Below are positions 52,568-62,306 of a stretch of 64,000 nt of DNA, one piece after another. Source of the DNA: a virus; IMG/VR virus record IMGVR_UViG_3300034072_000373, positions 12,030-76,029 of that record; one strand, 5' to 3'. The stretch's first letter is position 1; each line of letters opens with the position of its first letter. The translations under genes were made by a program, and so were the position numbers. The notes under the pieces were generated by a model that was given only the letters and a program-made list of their open reading frames with translations, did not search any database and was not told the origin of the DNA.

Positions 52568-53734
52568 CTACTGTATTGATGATGATTTTACGTGAACCTT
52601 GGTTCCAAATGGAACCGTGGCAGTGGGATTGTCCAGAACCACCCAGATCAGGGGGACTTCGTAAGACAGTGGTTGCATTTCAGGAACGTGCATATCTGAG
52701 AAGATAATGACGCCTGTGGGTTTGGTGTCCTCAATCCTTGCATGGACTGGAACCAGAGACGTTCCGCCTCCACCGTGGATTTCATATTCTGAAATATCGG
52801 TGTTTCGATCAATCACCTCAGTGTGGGTGATACGAGTATCGAATTGACTGAAGGTCATCTTGTCAGGCTTATATTGCTCTTTGAGATATACAAGCTCAGA
52901 GAGAATACGCTGGATTTGGCTTCGAGAGATTGAGCCAGACACATCAATGTAAACATCAATGTGGGCCAGCTTTCCCTTATCCTTGGCTCGATGGGGAAGA
53001 TACATATTGGTGTATCGTCTATTGGGACGAGTCCACTTGTATTTGATATGACAGAGTTCCGTGAGGAACTTCTGAATATGCCTTTCCCATGGGACAGCAG
53101 GATTGAGATAGGCATTCACTGTCTCGGTTACTTCACCGGGAAGTGTGCCTGCCTCTCCAGCTTGTTCAGCAGCATGGATAGAACGGATGATATTATTTAC
53201 CGTCTTCTGTGGTGTGGGACATTCTTGCATGTCCCCACCATCTTCAGCATTGCCCCATGAACCGGGAGCAAGCCCTCCAAGCAGTGGAACAATCTCATAG
53301 ATTTCCTCTTCAGTTTTGCCGAAGAGACTCTGATCTTTCCAACAATTCTCAAACCCTTTGAATGAGTAACCATCCCGTTCAAGATTGTTGTTGATGACGA
53401 TATCGCAGGCGACATTCCATTGATATGGATCACGATCACCACGACGCTGCATGTGCATTCTGGCTGGGTGCCAGACTTCGTGCATCAGAACAGTCGGCCT
53501 ACACTCAACGTCAAGTTCTAGGAACCACTGAGGATTCCAAGCATAGAACTCACCATTGGTGCAGGCCGTCTGGATACCAGTCGTCCAAAAGAAATTCATG
53601 CCACAGAGCATTGAGCCAAAGAATGCTGAATTCTTGCCTAAATAGATTCTTGATCGGGTGATATCCAGAAGACGATTTAGCTCACGCACATCTAGGCTTT
53701 GAAAGTCTTCAAGTGGTTGGACTGGTTGTTCCAT
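52568..53734 (-). CDS. Metallopeptidase + vWA domain protein (N4 gp25-like)
   Basis: TACTNG, HEVWH (HExxH), WNVACD..IN, IDVSGSI (MIDAS), GGGGT, FSD. Confidence 0.88.
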   Translation of the reverse strand: MEQPVQPLEDFQSLDVRELNRLLDITRSRIYLGKNSAFFGSMLCGMNFFWTTGIQTACTNGEFYAWNPQWFLELDVECRPTVLMHEVWHPARMHMQRRGDRDPYQWNVACDIVINNNLERDGYSFKGFENCWKDQSLFGKTEEEIYEIVPLLGGLAPGSWGNAEDGGDMQECPTPQKTVNNIIRSIHAAEQAGEAGTLPGEVTETVNAYLNPAVPWERHIQKFLTELCHIKYKWTRPNRRYTNMYLPHRAKDKGKLAHIDVYIDVSGSISRSQIQRILSELVYLKEQYKPDKMTFSQFDTRITHTEVIDRNTDISEYEIHGGGGTSLVPVHARIEDTKPTGVIIFSDMHVPEMQPLSYEVPLIWVVLDNPTATVPFGTKVHVKSSSIQ

Positions 53735-54770
53735 TGAGATACCTCGCAAGGTTGATGAAAGCCTTCTTGAATGCTGGATGTTCTTCCAGCGCAGGCTGAC
53801 GAATCTTCACACCCCGATAGAACAGGATGCGGAAATCGAGAGACATACGGTCGATATATTTTGCCATGGTTCCGAAATTCTTTTCGTCCACATTGCTCAT
53901 GAGCATACCGACAGTAGCCCAATTTATGTCGTTGGAATGTGAGATTTCAAGGGTTTCTGCTTCACGCAGAATACGGGCAAGGGTTGGAACCTTGTGAGAT
54001 ACCTTGGTGTATTGCACGAAAGATGCTGCCACGCCTGAAGTGATAGTCCCACCGAACAGGGTAGCATCCAGATCAGTAAGCTCTGGCTTGTTCTTCAGGA
54101 ACCTGTTGATGAATGACCATGTGCGAGGACAGCAGAATGTCCTATCCTGATGCTCAGGACGGAAATCATGCAGTTCCTCTCCCTTGGTTCGAGCCAGATA
54201 TGTGACAAGGCGATTGTCATAATTCTGAGCCAAAGCAACATCTTCCAGCCATTCCTGCCAGTCGATACGTAGGTTGATGTGAATCACACGAGACTGCATT
54301 GCAGTGCTGAGATCATTCACAATTGCGTTTGAGGTGGTAAGATTACCAGCAGCAGTGATGACACAGCGTTCATGCAGAGGATGCTGACCAACAAAGTGGT
54401 CCAGAACTGGCTTATATGCAGCAGCCTGAACATCCCGCTCACATGAGTTGAACTCATCCAAGAAGAGCATAAAGCCCTCCTTACCATCAGGAATGGGAGT
54501 ATCCTGCATGGGGAAGATTTCATCGAATGGAGCAAAGCGAGCTTTACCATCTTCAGTGAATCGGGGAAGACCGCTGAAGTCTTCTGGAATTGATGTGGAC
54601 ATTCGGTGATCGACCATGTGAAGGCCATAGTCATCACATACATTGTGCATGATGGCTGACTTGCCCATACCGGGATCACTGGTGACGAATGGAACCAGAC
54701 CTACCTCGATACAGTCTGATACCAGAGTTTTCATCTGCCGTGGTGTGGCAGAAAACATATCTATGCTCAT
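53709..54770 (-). CDS. MoxR-like AAA+ ATPase (N4 gp24-like)
   Basis: SDPGMGKS, LFLDEFN, AAGN, CPRTW; paired with the vWA gene. Confidence 0.88.
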   Translation of the reverse strand: MSIDMFSATPRQMKTLVSDCIEVGLVPFVTSDPGMGKSAIMHNVCDDYGLHMVDHRMSTSIPEDFSGLPRFTEDGKARFAPFDEIFPMQDTPIPDGKEGFMLFLDEFNSCERDVQAAAYKPVLDHFVGQHPLHERCVITAAGNLTTSNAIVNDLSTAMQSRVIHINLRIDWQEWLEDVALAQNYDNRLVTYLARTKGEELHDFRPEHQDRTFCCPRTWSFINRFLKNKPELTDLDATLFGGTITSGVAASFVQYTKVSHKVPTLARILREAETLEISHSNDINWATVGMLMSNVDEKNFGTMAKYIDRMSLDFRILFYRGVKIRQPALEEHPAFKKAFINLARYLNGTTSPTT

Positions 54771-55308: not shown

Positions 55309-55375
55309 CCCCTGAATCATAGAGTTGAAAGATACTTTCCTTCTTCCCTTTTGGTTCAGGGGTTACTTGAAAGGG
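55309..55375 (-). promoter_or_regulatory. Putative -1 programmed ribosomal frameshift signal
   Basis: C CCT TTC heptamer (55375-55369), 6-nt spacer, 8-bp stem CCCCTGAA/TTCAGGGG. Confidence 0.7.
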
Positions 55376-55983
55376 TTCTTGAAACCGCCATCCCCCATGA
55401 GCATCATCAGCATCATGGGATTGGAGAACAGACCTCCGGCATTACCACCGCTCATCATGAGCAGAGGCAGCATGGAGGACATATCCTTGTCACCACTCAT
55501 CAGCATGAGAGGCAGGAGGCTATTCATGTCCATGGTTCCAGAGTTACCTTCACCACCGAACATCGAACCGAATGAACGAACGACAGTCAGACCGTCCTTA
55601 ACGCCCAGCATGGAAACACGCTTGGGACGGAAACGGCTGATATGGCCCTGAACATTGATCGTCTGAATCGAAGCCTTTGCAGCTTCTTCGTCGGAAACCG
55701 ACTTTTTGTCGCCGTCTTCCAACAGGAAACCATATGCCCTGCCATCGGATACAAGAATGTCCCCACGCTTCACTTCGGTAGCAGGCGTCAGCATTGCAAA
55801 TGCTGGGATTTCCATCGAGAAGAAATCCAATGGATTCTGGTCCAGAACATCATCCTTGCCCAGAGTCACCAGACCAGCATTGGTCTTGATGCCTGAAGTG
55901 CCGGATGCAAGATCGTAGCTCACATTGTCGATGGGACGAAACATCGTCTGCATCGCCTTATTCATCGTGCTTTTCATATCCAT
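55363..55983 (-). CDS. Hypothetical protein with Met-rich repeated C-terminus
   Basis: AAGGA RBS; LLPLMLMSG / MLPLLMMSG / NPMMLMMLMG repeats. Confidence 0.75.
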   Translation of the reverse strand: MDMKSTMNKAMQTMFRPIDNVSYDLASGTSGIKTNAGLVTLGKDDVLDQNPLDFFSMEIPAFAMLTPATEVKRGDILVSDGRAYGFLLEDGDKKSVSDEEAAKASIQTINVQGHISRFRPKRVSMLGVKDGLTVVRSFGSMFGGEGNSGTMDMNSLLPLMLMSGDKDMSSMLPLLMMSGGNAGGLFSNPMMLMMLMGDGGFKNPFK

Positions 55984-56068
55984 TTTCAGTCTTCCTTCTT
56001 TGTAGGGTTCGGTCGTGGTCTTATGCTATCACCGTTCTAGCGCTCAAAATCAGATACCACTTCAGTCT

Positions 56069-56445
56069 ATCAGCGCCTAACCACACCAATAGAATACAAT
56101 CCGCATTTCCTATCGTTACCGAATAGGAAGCCGTAGCGGAGGTTAGCTGATGAAATTTTAGAGGCCACATCCCCCGATGTGATTAAGCATTAAGCACCTC
56201 TGCCCTGATCCAAGTGAGACACACCACATAACGCCGGGGAGAATTTCGGCAGATGGTAGTCATCTTCTTGGTTCGGGAAACTAAGTGGGTATCATCGTGG
56301 ATCATGACTCCATCACATCAGCCTACCCAAGCTATCCCGCTGCTATATCCGACTACATGGCCCATTGGGATTGAGCGTCATTAAACCATGCAGAAGCATT
56401 CCATTCTCAGAGAGCTACTCCGATTCCAAAGCCCGTTGCAACAGG
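56069..56445 (-). ncRNA. Cluster of putative structured RNA modules 3' of the hammerhead
   Basis: No plausible ORF; abutting closed stems at 56353-56393, 56275-56338, 56210-56271, 56160-56201 and 56069-56151. Confidence 0.55.
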
Positions 56446-56462
56446 TCTATGTATTTAGGAAT

Positions 56463-56510
56463 GTATGTGACACCTAAGTGTTTCGGCTCATTAAGCCTCA
56501 TCAGACATAC
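56463..56510 (-). ncRNA. Type I hammerhead ribozyme
   Basis: GTATGT-CTGATGA-GGCT(TAATG)AGCC-GAAA-CAC(TTAG)GTG-TC^ACATAC: complete core, three stems, GUC cleavage site. Confidence 0.9.
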
Positions 56511-56515
56511 TTGTA

Positions 56516-56848
56516 TTGGCACTTCTGTTGTCAGGCAGTTCCCGCCCCTGTGCTTTTACGCAGCCATGCGGTAGTCGGAGACTACATCGTTGTCGTTGAC
56601 ATTTAAGTTTCAACTGTCAGCTTAGGGCTGCCAATCCGATAGCGTTCTGAATCAATCCACATAGTCGATCCTAGTTCACCCCCATCAACTACATTGGTTC
56701 GAAGTGTTCATACCACGTATTCGGGCGTCTCCGGGTTTCCAACCCTAGTATGGCGGATACCATACCGAACCAATGCAGATGGTGGAGGTGACGGGTGCTG
56801 CCCCCGTGTCCTCATGCTTCAATCATCATTCCGAATTACTATCATCGC
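56516..56848 (-). ncRNA. ssrA: Circularly permuted (two-piece) tmRNA, alphaproteobacterial type
   Basis: Acceptor piece ...GACACGGG-GGCAGCA-CCCGT-CACCTCC-A-CCA (ends 56780), intervening hairpin, then GGGGGTGAACTAGGATCGAC (starts 56683); G3.U70; tag VNDNDVVSDYRMAA* at 56600-56556; outer ends approximate. Confidence 0.92.
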
Positions 56849-56898
56849 TTTAAGGTAGTCCATCCTCTGGAACGTGTCCAGAGGAACGATAACGAGAA

Positions 56899-57147
56899 CT
56901 ACCCTAACCAAATATTCCTGCCGATGATGTAGCCACACATAATGAGGGCTATAATAATGATTCCATTTAGGAACCAATTGAAGATACGACCAATCCATGT
57001 TGGGATTTCGAGTCGCTTGATCTTCACTGAAGCGAATGTGTCATAGAGCCATGCCAGTCCAGCAAAGATGCTGACCATCGCTACAACAGCCATAATCATG
57101 GCACATATACCAGTGAGAATGAGGCCAAGGCCAATCAGATATTCCAT
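56899..57147 (-). CDS. Small membrane protein inside the RNA island
   Basis: GGAAGG RBS; two long hydrophobic segments. Confidence 0.65.
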   Translation of the reverse strand: MEYLIGLGLILTGICAMIMAVVAMVSIFAGLAWLYDTFASVKIKRLEIPTWIGRIFNWFLNGIIIIALIMCGYIIGRNIWLG

Positions 57148-57708
57148 GGTTCTTCCTTCCATAATTTATGAGGACCGTGAACAAGCTCTCTGGCTCTGGT
57201 ATTGCTTACAGCATTGTCACATTCCAACGGTGGCCTACCGTGGTTATTCACGGCCCGCATAAAATATGCTTTGGTGCCTATCAGGGCGTTAGTCCTAATA
57301 AATTAGGTAACACTCCTGATAGGACACGCTCTAAAACCCGCTGCGTAGGCGAAGTGTTAACCCGCATAGGGATTACTCCCATTAGTGCTTTGTTTCGTCT
57401 TCATGTTACTACCGTTGGGTTGGCGAATTTAGCGGATGACAGTCTGTCTCGCCACTAGACAGACCTCCTGCTCAGATTGGCGGGAATGCTAAACCGATAG
57501 TCCTCATTAAGTCTGGCTCACAGACACCAAAATCTTTGAATGAATAGCGCCCAGATGAGTAGCGTTATCTCTCATCCTATATATCTTGCAGGATATACTA
57601 ATCTCCTGCTGCAACAGGAAATGGGCACGACAGCATTGCATGGTATCCTCCCTGATTACGGGAACCATGGAAAGGATTGACCATCCTTCAATGCTGTAAT
57701 TTAATTTT

Positions 57709-57807
57709 GAACCAGACGCTCTCGCTAATTGATTAGAATCAATTATTTGAATTGAGCTACTCCGACTGATGCCGGAGACAGGAATTACACCTGTAACCTT
57801 CTGGTTC
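57709..57807 (-). ncRNA. Permuted tRNA-like element with closed acceptor stem (Y RNA/YrlA-like topology)
   Basis: GAACCAGA-AGGTT-ACAGG(TGTAATT)CCTGT-CTCCGGC(ATCA)GTCGGAG-TA-GCTC(..)GAGC-G-TCTGGTTC. Confidence 0.75.
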
Positions 57808-57981
57808 CGGTTTTCCCTCATCTAACAGGTCATGACTCCGTTAGGTCGTCACAAATGAGATAAAACCAATTCTAATAAGGCAGGTAGGCAGGCTACAGGC
57901 CAATTAAGTATCGCTCTACTGAAAGGTTCTTTGCGATACACCCTTTACAGATTCAGTTCTAACCGCCTTTGAATCTCGTAG

Positions 57982-58015
57982 AAAAGCCCACCAGCCATGA
58001 AGCGACTAGTGGGCT
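57982..58015 (-). terminator. Terminator-like hairpin inside the RNA island
   Basis: AGCCCACTAGTCG...TGGCTGGTGGGCT-TTT; short U tract. Confidence 0.45.
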
Positions 58016-58337
58016 AACTCAGAATCTCAACAGGAAGATTGTGCGGCTATAAGCCATCCTGTTAACCGGCTCTGATACCGGATCGGGTAACGGGGGTTTC
58101 CATTTCCATCCCATTGGCTCTTACGAACCAAACGAAACAAATATTTCTACCTAAGTTACATTGGGCTTCTCACCCCTTTGCTCCGTTCTCGGAGCATCTG
58201 AAATGAGTCCGGGGACTCGAAGACTCAGATGCTTCAATTGGTCGAGGACACCAATTCGCTTGACGGACCAGCCCGGTCAGACTTTGGGCCTGTCCTAGTT
58301 CACTCATTGTGAGCGAACCCAAAAAACATACGGCTGA

Positions 58338-58880
58338 TTACGCAGTAACGTTGATCGTAACGGAATCAGTCATACCGGAATCAAGCACGGTAATTTCAAC
58401 CGTGGTGGTTCCAATCTTCTTTGGCACGATTGCACCAGTCTTATCGACTTCAGCAATAAGTGAATCTGCACTGACCAGCTTCACATCCTTCTTCGTGGCT
58501 CCAGCAGGGGAGACAGTGAAGACAGGGTGGAATGCACCAGTTGCAAGGGAGATATCGTATGAGGTGGCACCAAATTCAACACCAGTGCTACGCACATAGG
58601 TTTCATCAATGATAGTCACCTTCGCCATATCGGTGATATTATCAGGCCACTGAAGATCACTGGTGGCAACTGAACCATCGACATTGGATACCTTATAGAG
58701 AATATCCCGGACATGCTGATAAAGCACATGGCTCAGATCAGCATGATAACCGAACTCTTCATCAGTGGGACCATGAGAGAACTTACCGATGATTTCAGAA
58801 CCACCGGGAGCAATAGCACCGTCAACCTGAACAGTTGCAGTGCGTGTATCGAAATTGAAGGCTACCTGAAAATCTGCCAT
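58338..58880 (-). CDS. Ig-like (Big_2) capsid decoration protein (N4 gp17-like position)
   Basis: TVSPAGATKKDV...S....AEVD..G.I.....GTTTVEIT..D; start MADFQ after AAGGA; follows RNAP2. Confidence 0.78.
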   Translation of the reverse strand: MADFQVAFNFDTRTATVQVDGAIAPGGSEIIGKFSHGPTDEEFGYHADLSHVLYQHVRDILYKVSNVDGSVATSDLQWPDNITDMAKVTIIDETYVRSTGVEFGATSYDISLATGAFHPVFTVSPAGATKKDVKLVSADSLIAEVDKTGAIVPKKIGTTTVEITVLDSGMTDSVTINVTA

Positions 58881-58893
58881 CTTGACTATCCTT

Positions 58894-58930
58894 AAAAAAA
58901 TACGGCCAACAGGGGAATACCCTGTTGGCC
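58894..58930 (-). terminator. Terminator after RNAP2
   Basis: GGCCAACAGGG-TATTC-CCCTGTTGGCC-GTA-TTTTTTT. Confidence 0.85.
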
Positions 58931-58945
58931 ACATATATAGAATAA

Positions 58946-60172
58946 TTAACTTAAAGCATACTCTGCATTCAGAATCTCATCAGCCATGGTGGGATCAAGC
59001 TTTTCAGTCTTGATTTCCCGACCAGTGATCTGGCTGAGAATGTAATCGAGCATCTTGCTCTTGCCGATGAGGTGAAGCTGCATATTGTATTGACGACGAA
59101 TCTCGTTACCATAATTGGGATGGACACGGAAACAGTCATGCACAGCGATCACCTTGAATGGCTTCTTAGCGAAGCTGTTAAGCAACTCCCTAATGACCGC
59201 AACATCCACCAGATGGATATTATCGGCATTCAGATGATCAACGATCCGGGCAGAGAGATACCCGGATTGCTCGTAATGGTTCCAGAGGGTAGCAACGAGC
59301 TTGTCGTTATAAGTGAGGCTACGCTCTACGGTCTGCCCCTTAACGGGTAGTTCCAGCAGTCCCTTAACGAACAGCAGTCGAGCAGGATCATAGTCACAAC
59401 GACGAGTGATTTCACGAACCACCATGCCGTCAATGCTATGAACCATGTTGGGTCCAAGTGAACGGCCAGTTTCAGTCGGTGCATTCTCCTTGAAGAACAC
59501 ATCGAAAGGCTCATTCAAGAAGTGAACCTTCTCAGTGAAAGTGTTCATGACCTTGCACTTCACATGGAAGTTATCAGGCAGAACCCAATCATTGGAGAGA
59601 GCTTCAGGATTCCAGAAGTTCACCATAGCTTCGTTCAAGTCCCATGCTGCGGGGGCAACATACTGCATAATCTCATAGAAGAGATCAAGCAGCGGACCTT
59701 CACCGAAGATTTCCTTGGGTTGAGCCTGTGAGCCGTAGAGAGCAGTCATGATTGCTTTCTTGACATCATCACGCTTGATCTTGGACTTTTCACCCAAGAC
59801 ACTAAGCATGAGATTGTAGATGACAGTATAGCCATCCATACGTTGTGCTACAGCTTTGTCGCTGAAGTCGAGGATGACATTGCAGAGCTTTGCAGCAGAA
59901 CGATCACCAGTGAGACAGGCGAGCAATTGCATACCTGAAGCAGTAGCGTCCAAGCTGATCATATAACCGCTTGGACGCTTTGCGAGGTAGTCTTCATATG
60001 CTTTGATACCAGCATAGAAGAGTGCAGGCTCATCAGCTTCTTGAACCAGATTGTGAAGATTGTTCTTATTGTCATTGAACCAATCGAGACGCTCATTCCA
60101 AGTCAGTTTGTCCAGACCGAAATTGTTAGCAATGTCGATCATGAGATACTGAGAAGCGGTGAATTCCTGCAT
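58946..60172 (-). CDS. RNA polymerase II subunit 2 (N4 gp16-like)
   Basis: SLDATASGMQ (A), RDDVKKAIMTALYGS (B), PNMVHSIDG and VHDCF (C). Confidence 0.92.
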   Translation of the reverse strand: MQEFTASQYLMIDIANNFGLDKLTWNERLDWFNDNKNNLHNLVQEADEPALFYAGIKAYEDYLAKRPSGYMISLDATASGMQLLACLTGDRSAAKLCNVILDFSDKAVAQRMDGYTVIYNLMLSVLGEKSKIKRDDVKKAIMTALYGSQAQPKEIFGEGPLLDLFYEIMQYVAPAAWDLNEAMVNFWNPEALSNDWVLPDNFHVKCKVMNTFTEKVHFLNEPFDVFFKENAPTETGRSLGPNMVHSIDGMVVREITRRCDYDPARLLFVKGLLELPVKGQTVERSLTYNDKLVATLWNHYEQSGYLSARIVDHLNADNIHLVDVAVIRELLNSFAKKPFKVIAVHDCFRVHPNYGNEIRRQYNMQLHLIGKSKMLDYILSQITGREIKTEKLDPTMADEILNAEYALS

Positions 60173-61292: not shown

Positions 61293-61491
61293 AGCCAGTC
61301 CTCCTTATAGTCTGACTGTTGTAGTTGACCCATGCACTGATGCCGCAGACTGGACAGTCAACATACTGGACAGCAAACATGGTGGTTGATGGTTCAAAAG
61401 GTTTGTGACCACAAGGAGGTGTGACCCTCCAACGATTGGTTCTATAGTCTGAAGACAGACCAAGATGTTGAAGAGTCCATTCTCTCGTCAT
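61282..61491 (-). CDS. Zinc-ribbon hypothetical protein
   Basis: CGH...CPVC; ATGA overlap with RNAP1. Confidence 0.6.
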   Translation of the reverse strand: MTREWTLQHLGLSSDYRTNRWRVTPPCGHKPFEPSTTMFAVQYVDCPVCGISAWVNYNSQTIRRTGFED

Positions 61492-62306
61492 TCGATGATC
61501 TCCTTATCAGCAAGCTCAACGACTGCCTTATTCCATGCTGTGCCTTGATAGTTCACATGATAGCCCTGACAGTAGATACGACCACGCTTGTCATACTTAT
61601 GGGTGAGATAGAACTCATTCCCACATGTATCCAAGGTGTCGATGACCTCCTTAGAGACTCGGTTATACTTATCGAATGCACGCTTACGAGCATCGAAAGA
61701 TTCCACCGATTCACCGGGCTTAGCCTTATCAAGATTACGCCACTCATTCTTAATCATGGAGGCAGTATCTTGATTGATGGTCAGCTTGATCTTGTTCATG
61801 CGATTCAAGTGATCGAGACACACATCACCATCATGATGGTTATTCCGAAGAATAACACTACCTTGGTTTGTGATATAACCAGTGTCACGATTGGACTTGA
61901 TCTTCCTTGGTTCAACCACCATCGGGAGCGGATATTGATAGGTATCAATCTCACGCTGCACATCTTTCGATATGGTGTAGCGAACAATGAACAGACGATA
62001 CTGAGGATTCCAATCCAGCACATCATGCTGTGCAGCCTTGAGAATCATATCGACAGTCTGCTGACTGTCTTTGAAATGATGGCGAAGAAGACCAACCAAT
62101 GTTGGTAGGTTGGTCCTCTTATAGATTGCCATCTGAGTGAGAATGTCGAAGCCAAATGCTACAGGAATCTCAATCTCATTGAACCAGTCAATGAAGTTGA
62201 ACTCCTTGCAGTTAATGAACTCCGACTTCACACGAGGGATAAGTTGATTCTTGTTGAAGAGCTTTTCCAAGTCGATCTGGGTATTAATATCCACACGCTC
62301 ATTCAT
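61488..62306 (-). CDS. RNA polymerase II subunit 1 (N4 gp15-like)
   Basis: YQYPLPMVVEP, FYLTHKYDKRGRIYCQGYHVNYQG (DxRGR motif). Confidence 0.92.
   Translation of the reverse strand: MNERVDINTQIDLEKLFNKNQLIPRVKSEFINCKEFNFIDWFNEIEIPVAFGFDILTQMAIYKRTNLPTLVGLLRHHFKDSQQTVDMILKAAQHDVLDWNPQYRLFIVRYTISKDVQREIDTYQYPLPMVVEPRKIKSNRDTGYITNQGSVILRNNHHDGDVCLDHLNRMNKIKLTINQDTASMIKNEWRNLDKAKPGESVESFDARKRAFDKYNRVSKEVIDTLDTCGNEFYLTHKYDKRGRIYCQGYHVNYQGTAWNKAVVELADKEIIE

What the first reader, a model, noticed from the sequence alone, without database searches (positions are those of the whole stretch)
57709..57807. Circularly permuted tRNA mimic with a looped-shut acceptor stem and no anticodon
Seen (- strand): 3' anticodon strand GAACCAGA, variable AGGTT, T arm ACAGG-TGTAATT-CCTGT, acceptor 3' strand CTCCGGC, 4-nt loop ATCA, acceptor 5' strand GTCGGAG, TA, D stem GCTC/GAGC, G, then TCTGGTTC. 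The spacing is exactly tRNA-like, but the chain opens at the anticodon stem, there is no CCA, and the D loop carries an inserted hairpin (TAATTGATT-CT-AATCAATTA). Established: YrlA-class bacterial Y RNAs have this topology and usually lie next to a Ro60/Rsr gene; none is seen in this window. Inference: a tRNA-elbow decoy for anticodon nucleases or tRNA-targeting toxins, a Ro ligand, or an RNase P processing signal.
Basis: partly seen in the sequence, partly recalled or inferred. Interest (0 to 1): 0.82.

Follow-up and report, generated by a model that had tools for sequence, protein, structure and literature searches.

The report
Ro60-less tRNA-mimic RNA in phage
An N4-like phage encodes a small, conserved RNA shaped like a tRNA with rewired ends, a capped acceptor stem and no anticodon; this is the known YrlA/Y-RNA design, but the phage lacks the Ro60 gene and Ro60-binding handle that normally go with it.

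Summary
On the minus strand, 57807-57709 folds exactly as described: an 8-bp closing stem, AGGUU, a T arm, a 7-bp acceptor hairpin capped by AUCA, UA, a GCUC/GAGC D arm with a hairpin in its loop, G, then the closing stem. Its fold z-score is -6.5.

It is a conserved RNA. A model built from it finds the same architecture at the same place in a diverged N4-like relative. It also finds three copies in a jumbo-phage tRNA array and others elsewhere. Across six members, 16 of 24 testable pairs change on both sides, and the 15:48 tertiary pair covaries.

The same searches also retrieve RNAs upstream of TROVE/Ro60 genes in five viral contigs. Two bacterial hits lie on contigs that also carry TROVE. 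The class is therefore the known YrlA tRNA mimic.

This copy fails the family's other defining tests. It scores 19 bits against a threshold of 69. It has no Ro60 handle, and there is no TROVE gene in the complete 76-kb phage. Its T loop is non-canonical and its D loop lacks GG.

Best reading: a stand-alone tRNA-like effector module. What it does is unproven.

This scan has noted Ro60-less phage tRNA mimics before on other DNA. Verdict: a new variant of a known kind, of moderate interest.

The parts
57800..57807 (-). closing stem, 5' strand GAACCAGA (takes the place of the anticodon-stem 3' strand)
   Evidence: Pairs with 57709-57716 in the MFE and centroid folds. The inner 5 bp covary across six members; the outer 3 bp are specific to this phage.
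57795..57799 (-). variable-region analogue AGGUU; its last U is position 48
   Evidence: AGGUY is conserved in the family. U48 goes with A15, and C48 with G15, in relatives.
57778..57794 (-). T arm ACAGG-UGUAAUU-CCUGU, with a non-canonical T loop
   Evidence: Folds. Stem pairs covary. The same odd loop recurs in metagenome member L285.
57760..57777 (-). 7-bp acceptor-like hairpin CUCCGGC-AUCA-GUCGGAG, closed, with no CCA
   Evidence: Folds. Six of 7 pairs change on both sides across members, with 97.6% of cells paired. Relatives cap it with UACG, GAAA, CAAA or CACAUU.
57758..57759 (-). UA, the analogue of tRNA U8-A9
   Evidence: Invariant in all aligned members. The search pattern required it, so this is partly ascertainment.
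57718..57757 (-). D arm GCUC ... GAGC with a 32-nt loop
   Evidence: Matches the YrlA consensus GUAGCUCAauu...GAGC. The stem is invariant in the family.
57726..57745 (-). perfect 20-nt palindrome (hairpin) inserted in the D loop
   Evidence: Unique in the window and absent from every relative found. ARAGORN accepts the re-permuted sequence only when it is removed.
57717..57717 (-). single G between D stem and closing stem (analogue of position 26)
   Evidence: One nucleotide (A or G) sits here in five of six aligned members.
57709..57716 (-). closing stem, 3' strand UCUGGUUC
55984..58337 (-). context: a 2.3-kb non-coding RNA island between the Big_2 protein gene and a 206-aa gene, downstream of RNAP2
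   Evidence: ORF list. It holds a permuted tmRNA at 56514-56884 and a hammerhead-like motif at 56464-56534. A syntenic island in relative L004 carries the homologous element.

Best explanation
It is a real, selected small RNA of the YrlA (Y RNA-like A) design. It is a tRNA body written in permuted order, with the acceptor stem capped by a loop and the anticodon arm replaced by a closing helix. Here it has been reduced to the tRNA-like 'effector' module alone. The phage has no Ro60 gene, and the RNA has no Ro60-binding handle.

Inferred mechanism: the RNA is transcribed with the neighbouring phage tmRNA from the RNA island downstream of RNAP2. It folds into a tRNA-like L shape. It acts in trans by occupying a host factor that recognises the tRNA body (the acceptor/T stack and the D stem), independently of a phage Ro60.

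Shown: the fold, its conservation, its tRNA geometry and its kinship with Ro60-linked YrlA-type RNAs. Inferred: expression, the L-shaped fold in vivo, the trans action and the identity of the partner.
For: Fold: z = -6.5.

Conservation: a homologue lies in the syntenic RNA island of an N4-like relative whose RNAP2 is only 60% identical. It scores 36.9 bits (E about 2e-6) with a model built from the window element alone, and shows 7 compensatory pairs. Further members are three copies in the tRNA array of a complete 360-kb phage and one in a complete 56-kb phage.

Covariation: across six members 94% of cells are paired, against about 38% when partners are slid. Sixteen pairs change on both sides, and 0 of 500 shuffles reach the observed values.

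tRNA geometry: the Levitt pair covaries as A15:U48 (5 members) or G15:C48 (7 members), Fisher p = 0.005. All re-permuted members are accepted as tRNAs by ARAGORN.

Kinship with YrlA: the model built only from the window and L004 finds L175 (48 bits), which lies upstream of a TROVE gene on the same strand. Four more viral elements lie upstream of TROVE genes, and two bacterial hits lie on contigs that also carry TROVE. The permuted, closed-acceptor layout is how YrlA is described in print (PMC4201824; bioRxiv 10.1101/312249).

Orphan state: no TROVE, DUF2828, RtcB or CCA-adding enzyme was found in the complete genomes of the window phage, L004, L084 or L144. The phage's other genes are ordinary N4-like genes. 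The handle motif and basal stem of Ro60-linked members are absent here.
Against: There are no expression, binding or processing data. The partner is unknown. YrlA's tRNA-like domain has no known effector in the papers read here.

This copy's elbow is degenerate (T loop UGUAAUU, no GG in the D loop, hairpin insert). It may therefore not mimic what most tRNA-binding proteins read.

All members are tRNA-like, so part of the model similarity could reflect independent descent from tRNAs rather than common descent with YrlA.

The search patterns demanded AGGU, the T-loop frame and UAGCUCA, so conservation of those letters is partly ascertainment. The alignments used for pair counts were fitted to the model.

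The host is unknown and may encode Ro60.
Confidence: 0.55

Rival explanations
1. It is a true Y RNA that works with the host's own Ro60/Rsr. The phage supplies only the RNA, to gate or redirect a host Rsr-PNPase type complex.
For: The class is tied to Ro60. Five of the closed-acceptor elements found in viral contigs lie just upstream of TROVE genes, and both bacterial hits lie on contigs that also carry TROVE. Metagenome member L285 shares the window's unusual T loop and has a full Y-RNA layout, with an 8-bp basal stem and a GAUACUUCA handle. The permuted tmRNA scores best against the alphaproteobacterial model among its Rfam clan. Chen et al. report a putative YrlA RNA in Rhizobium etli (PMC4201824). 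A phage Ro60-Yrl complex binds host PNPase (PMC12135203). A GUUA word lies 17 nt before the core, at the position of the GGUUAC handle in linked members.
Against: The window element has no convincing basal stem. It has neither GNCGAAN0-1G nor GGUUAC. The upstream CUGUUAG pairs into a neighbouring hairpin in the fold. Only about 5% of bacterial genomes encode Ro60 (PMC4201824). Four complete phages carry such RNAs without TROVE. The host is unknown.
Confidence: 0.2
2. It is an RNase P substrate. The enzyme cuts 5' of G57766 inside the AUCA loop, giving a two-piece, tRNA-like molecule whose 3' end may be trimmed and CCA-tailed. Alternatively, the cut serves as a processing point for the island transcript.
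For: The acceptor stem is 7 bp. M. smegmatis YrlA, which has a 7-bp stem, is cut by RNase P in vitro and is cleaved and CCA-tailed in vivo (PMC4201824). The loop AUCA has the length of N-CCA. The permuted tmRNA about 830 nt downstream in the same island is, from established knowledge of two-piece tmRNAs, matured by the same kind of cut.
Against: Relatives cap the stem with stable UACG and GAAA tetraloops, which argues for a closed stem. The loop sequence is not conserved and is never CCA. The degenerate T/D-loop elbow should weaken RNase P recognition. After a cut the two halves would stay paired, so it is a poor punctuation mark.
Confidence: 0.12
3. It is a functionless scar of tRNA gene rearrangement in a phage tRNA/tmRNA island, for example the inner halves of a decayed tandem duplicate.
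For: Most pattern and model hits elsewhere are simply abutting tRNA genes. Such islands turn over quickly: the contents of the window and L004 islands differ.
Against: No tRNA halves flank it. Compensatory changes keep every helix between phages whose RNAP2 is only 60% identical. Closure by tetraloops is not expected from decay.
Confidence: 0.05
4. It is protein-coding (the 104-aa ORF 57507-57821 on the minus strand), or a DNA-level site, with the perfect palindrome acting as an operator.
For: An ATG-started ORF overlaps it. The 20-nt palindrome is perfect, as protein-binding sites often are.
Against: The ORF has no Pfam or PHROG match. The L004 homologue is not inside any same-strand ORF of 70 aa or more. 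The substitution pattern is that of RNA helices. The palindrome is absent from all relatives.
Confidence: 0.03

Closest known systems
YrlA (Y RNA-like A; Rfam RF02553; Chen et al. 2014, PMC4201824; structure paper bioRxiv 10.1101/312249)
   Same: Permuted tRNA order (T arm before D arm), closed acceptor stem-loop, no anticodon loop, the UA-GCUC...GAGC D arm, and a covarying 15:48 pair. Models built from this element retrieve RNAs next to Ro60 genes.
   Different: No Ro60 gene in the phage. No basal stem or Ro60-binding motif. Only 19.3 bits against a threshold of 69. T loop UGUAAUU instead of UUCRANY. No GG in the D loop. A 20-nt hairpin inserted in the D loop. An 8-bp perfect closing helix where the Rfam YrlA consensus has a helix of about 4 pairs.
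Mycobacterium smegmatis YrlA (PMC4201824)
   Same: [quoted passage not shown]
   Different: That RNA is bound by Rsr and encoded beside rsr. Cleavage of the phage RNA is untested.
tRNA-like domain of two-piece (permuted) tmRNA, as at 56514-56884 in the same island
   Same: The same gene order: helix strand, T arm, acceptor 3' strand, intervening loop, acceptor 5' strand, D region, helix strand.
   Different: No encoded CCA, no G3:U70, no tag reading frame, a 4-nt rather than a long intervening segment, and a full D stem. Rfam tmRNA models do not match it.
Thermus phage phiLo Yrl1/Yrl2 with phage Ro60 (PMC12135203)
   Same: Phage-encoded Y-RNA-like RNAs.
   Different: Those lie upstream of a phage Ro60 gene and are defined by a stem-bulge-stem with a CGAA motif. 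Here neither is present.

Membership tests
YrlA (RF02553) | tRNA-like domain in permuted order: variable region and T arm, then a closed acceptor stem-loop, then the D arm, with no anticodon loop | tested here: met
   Folds; full-length alignment to the YrlA model; re-permuted sequence accepted by ARAGORN after removal of the D-loop insert.
YrlA (RF02553) | tRNA tertiary pairs kept, notably a covarying Levitt pair 15:48 | tested here: met
   A15:U48 here. Across members A:U 5, G:C 7, others 3; Fisher p = 0.005.
YrlA (RF02553) | Nearly invariant T arm and D loop forming a canonical elbow (UUCRA T loop, GG in D loop) | tested here: not met
   T loop UGUAAUU, T stem ACAGG/CCUGU, D loop without GG and with a 20-nt hairpin.
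YrlA (RF02553) | Score at or above Rfam's gathering threshold (69 bits) | tested here: not met
   19.3 bits; E 0.13 on 351 nt and 0.75 on 2 kb.
YrlA (RF02553) | Ro60-binding module: long 5'/3' stem with GNCGAAN0-1G near the 5' end | tested here: not met
   No motif within 70 nt. No stable basal stem. Ro60-linked members instead show GGUUAC(U/C), which is also absent here apart from a GUUA word.
YrlA (RF02553) | Encoded within about 4 kb of a Ro60/TROVE gene on the same strand | tested here: not met
   No TROVE (E <= 1) and no DUF2828 in the complete 76-kb phage.
YrlA (RF02553) | Bound by Rsr/Ro60 | not testable with these tools
   Needs immunoprecipitation or a gel-shift assay. The host is unknown.
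tRNA (RF00005) | Contiguous cloverleaf with an anticodon loop and free acceptor ends | tested here: not met
   No call by ARAGORN or Rfam. The order is permuted, the acceptor is capped and there is no anticodon loop.
Permuted two-piece tmRNA (RF04321 / RF01849) | Alanine identity pair G3:U70, encoded CCA, tag reading frame, model match | tested here: not met
   The tmRNA models match only 56514-56884. The acceptor here is G1-C72, U2-G71, C3-G70, with loop AUCA.

The most novel reading that the evidence does not exclude
Phages of unrelated types (N4-like, jumbo, and a 56-kb siphovirus-like phage) carry a Ro60-independent class of capped, anticodon-less tRNA mimics. In three of the four phages found here these lie inside tRNA/tmRNA gene islands. 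On this reading the tRNA-like module of Y RNAs is an autonomous effector. It would bind a still unknown tRNA-body-reading host factor, for example a tRNA-directed defence nuclease or a tRNA maturation or quality-control enzyme, and phages would use it alone during takeover.
Probability: 0.3. Interest if true: 0.7.

Novelty: new variant of a known kind. Interest (0 to 1): 0.45.

Why it matters
The effector bound by the tRNA-like half of bacterial Y RNAs had not been identified in the papers read here. Copies that keep only that half, in complete phage genomes without Ro60, suggest the module can work on its own. They also offer a simple system for finding its partner: one RNA in a lytic phage. 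This copy further shows how far the design can drift and still be kept: a rewired T loop, a D loop without GG and an extra hairpin. On the practical side, such elements are missed by Rfam's threshold and are easily confused with abutting tRNA genes.

Tried and rejected
1. DNA similarity: blastn of the island against GenBank phages found no match. An exact 31-mer in IMG/VR found none.

2. Single-protein locus search with RNAP2 found nothing. An alignment-based search was needed.

The closest RNAP2 relatives (about 62% identity, from Logan assemblies) could therefore not be fetched.

4. A loose structure descriptor written in Python gave mostly chance hits and was dropped.

5. Pattern and model hits were mostly tandem tRNA genes. 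They were filtered by ARAGORN overlap and acceptor complementarity. L054 was a false hit inside a coding region.

6. The element is not a recent derivative of the phage's own tRNA-Arg(UCU).

7. Searches for the window's T loop in metagenomes and IMG/VR found one more member (L285). None had the D-loop hairpin.

8. Looking for a partner protein found no TROVE, DUF2828, RtcB or CCA-adding enzyme. Neighbouring and other phage genes are ordinary N4-like genes. DUF7873 could not be searched by name.

9. Rhizobium N4-like phage RHph_I1_6 has no RNA island after RNAP2.

10. Two reviews on bacterial Y RNAs were not held in the paper library.

Full report
**What is there.** The window is bases 12030-76029 of a 76,029-bp virus record rated complete. 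It is an N4-like (Schitoviridae) phage. It has a 3,457-aa virion RNA polymerase ORF, RNAP1 at 61488-62306 and RNAP2 at 58946-60172. Its other genes are ordinary for the group. Between a Big_2 protein gene (58338-58934) and a 206-aa gene (55363-55983) lies a 2.3-kb stretch without credible genes. On the minus strand this stretch holds a circularly permuted tmRNA at 56514-56884 (RF04321, 90.8 bits; RF01849, 76.9 bits) and a sub-threshold hammerhead-like motif next to it. The finding lies about 830 nt upstream of the tmRNA.

**Check of the observation.** The 99-nt core folds, in both the minimum-energy and centroid structures, into a four-way junction: an 8-bp closing stem, a 5-bp/7-nt T arm, a 7-bp hairpin with a 4-nt loop, and a 4-bp D stem whose loop holds an 8-bp hairpin. 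The energy is -36.3 kcal/mol against -18.4 +/- 2.7 for shuffles (z = -6.54, 0 of 200 as good). The fold persists with flanks. No tRNA is called here. The overlapping 104-aa ORF matches nothing.

**Relatives and covariation.** Sequence searches found nothing. I therefore fetched 80 IMG/VR loci around RNAP2 relatives and searched them with a covariance model of the element.
- One locus matched: L004 9174-9255, in the closest relative available (RNAP2 60% identical). It lies on the same strand downstream of RNAP2 and a Big_2 gene, inside that phage's own RNA island.
- The two islands otherwise share only the hammerhead-like motif and the start of the downstream gene.
- Window and L004 differ by seven double compensatory changes in the helices.

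A pattern taken from both sequences found more candidates in IMG/VR. Most were abutting tRNA genes, the same false positive that Chen et al. warn about (PMC4201824). After removing hits that overlap ARAGORN tRNAs, closed-acceptor members remained:
- three copies in the tRNA array of a complete 360-kb phage (L084);
- one upstream of the terminase genes of a complete 56-kb phage (L144);
- L175, L112, L152, L163, L182 and L129.

On the six-member model alignment 94% of cells pair, against 35-44% when partners are slid. Sixteen of 24 informative pairs change on both sides, and no shuffle of 500 reaches the observed values. The alignment was fitted to the model, which favours the structure, but the margin is large. 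Only the inner 5 bp of the closing helix are family-wide, which is the length of an anticodon stem.

**How tRNA-like it is.** Each member was re-ordered as acceptor 5' strand, D arm, closing stem, artificial anticodon loop, closing stem, variable region, T arm, acceptor 3' strand, CCA.
- Every member was then accepted by ARAGORN. The window copy passed only after its D-loop hairpin was removed. The loop and CCA were supplied by me; the arms and spacing are native.
- The Levitt pair covaries as A15:U48 in five members, including the window, and G15:C48 in seven, with three exceptions (Fisher p = 0.005). Chen et al. reported the same covariation for YrlA.
- The window copy departs at the elbow. 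Its T loop is UGUAAUU and its D loop has no GG.
- The four members without GG include all three with a non-canonical T loop (the window, L285 and L084-9473). All members with GG have UUCRA.

**Relation to YrlA.** Rfam's YrlA model aligns the element end to end but scores 19.3 bits against a threshold of 69. It matches the tRNA-like part and fails on the stem. Other members score 22-41 bits, mostly over model positions 23-85, which is the tRNA-like domain.
- L175 is found at 48 bits by the model built only from the window and L004. It lies a few hundred bases upstream of a TROVE (Ro60) ORF on the same strand.
- L112, L152, L163 and L182 lie likewise upstream of TROVE genes.
- The only two closed-acceptor hits among 46 bacterial matches lie on contigs that also carry TROVE.

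The window element therefore belongs structurally with the known YrlA tRNA mimics. The literature already describes these as resembling circularly permuted tRNAs with closed acceptor stems (bioRxiv 10.1101/312249).

**What it lacks.** The complete phage has no TROVE gene, no DUF2828, no RtcB and no CCA-adding enzyme. The same holds for the L004, L084 and L144 phages, all 99-100% complete.
- Ro60-linked members carry a 5' GGUUAC(U/C) word 10-17 nt before the core, plus a basal stem.
- L285 shares the window's odd T loop and has an 8-bp basal stem and a GAUACUUCA handle.
- The window has neither this handle nor the published GNCGAAN0-1G motif. Its upstream CUGUUAG pairs into a neighbouring hairpin.

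It is thus the tRNA-like module alone, closed by a strong 8-bp helix.

**Mechanism.** The fold, the selection on it, the tRNA geometry, the kinship with Ro60-linked RNAs and the absence of Ro60 and its handle are shown. What follows is inferred.
- My preferred reading is that the module acts by itself as a tRNA-body mimic. It would bind a host factor that reads the acceptor/T stack and the D stem. It is probably expressed with the tmRNA from the same island.
- Rival 1: it is a ligand for a host Ro60. This is possible if the host is an Rsr-bearing alphaproteobacterium, but the handle is missing.
- Rival 2: it is an RNase P substrate that becomes a two-piece molecule. The 7-bp stem matches M. 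smegmatis YrlA, but relatives cap the stem with UACG or GAAA tetraloops and the elbow is degenerate.
- The scar, coding and DNA-site readings fit the substitution pattern poorly.

**Novelty.** The class has been known since 2014. I found no description of Ro60-less copies in phage tRNA/tmRNA islands in the papers I could read. However, two reviews were not available. Earlier notes of this scan report Ro60-less phage tRNA mimics, and mimics with other candidate partners, on other DNA. I used those notes as leads only. I rate this a new variant of a known kind, with a distinctive D-loop hairpin and a rewired elbow, and of moderate interest.

Noticed in passing
window 56514-56884 (-): Phage-encoded circularly permuted (two-piece) tmRNA (RF04321, 90.8 bits; alpha_tmRNA, 76.9 bits) with tag VNDNDVVSDYRMAA. 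Relative L039 (9343-9716) carries a similar one with tag VNDNDESVPVLRLAA, 74-86% identical over the conserved blocks.
   Followed up: partly
window 56464-56534 (-); L004 8764-8808: Hammerhead (type III / RAGATH-1-like) motif directly 3' of the tmRNA. It is below Rfam's thresholds (about 27 bits) but 84% conserved over 38 nt in L004, where it follows a tRNA-Arg by about 360 nt and no tmRNA is present.
   Followed up: partly
L004 9631-9700 and 10282-10351: Two further sub-threshold tRNA-like matches (RF00005, 23.7 and 25.2 bits) in the relative's RNA island. ARAGORN does not call them tRNAs.
   Followed up: no
window 57726-57745: The hairpin inserted in the D loop is a perfect 20-nt DNA palindrome (TAATTGATT-CT-AATCAATTA). 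It is unique in the window and absent from all relatives. It could be a recent insertion or a protein-binding site.
   Followed up: partly
L084 8291-8376, 9473-9557, 10137-10217 (-): A complete 360-kb phage with terminal repeats and no TROVE gene carries three closed-acceptor tRNA mimics interspersed among about 20 tRNA genes. Two are paralogues. The third shares CCAGAAGGU...GAGCGUCUGGUU with the window element.
   Followed up: partly
L112, L152, L163, L182, L233, L254 (5' flanks of the elements): Ro60-linked closed-acceptor RNAs share a GGUUAC(U/C) word 10-17 nt upstream of the tRNA-like core, rather than the published GNCGAAN0-1G. L254 (an Anaerolineae MAG) has three tandem model hits on a contig that also carries TROVE.
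   Followed up: partly
window about 57977-58013 (-): A GC-rich hairpin followed by UUUUCU, about 325 nt after the stop of the Big_2 gene, looks like an intrinsic terminator. If so, the RNA island would start as a separate transcription unit. The consensus scanner did not list it.
   Followed up: no
window 52568-54770 (-): An AAA ATPase and a DUF2201 (vWA-like plus metallopeptidase-like) gene pair lies just beyond the island. It is not a TROVE/Ro60 protein.
   Followed up: partly
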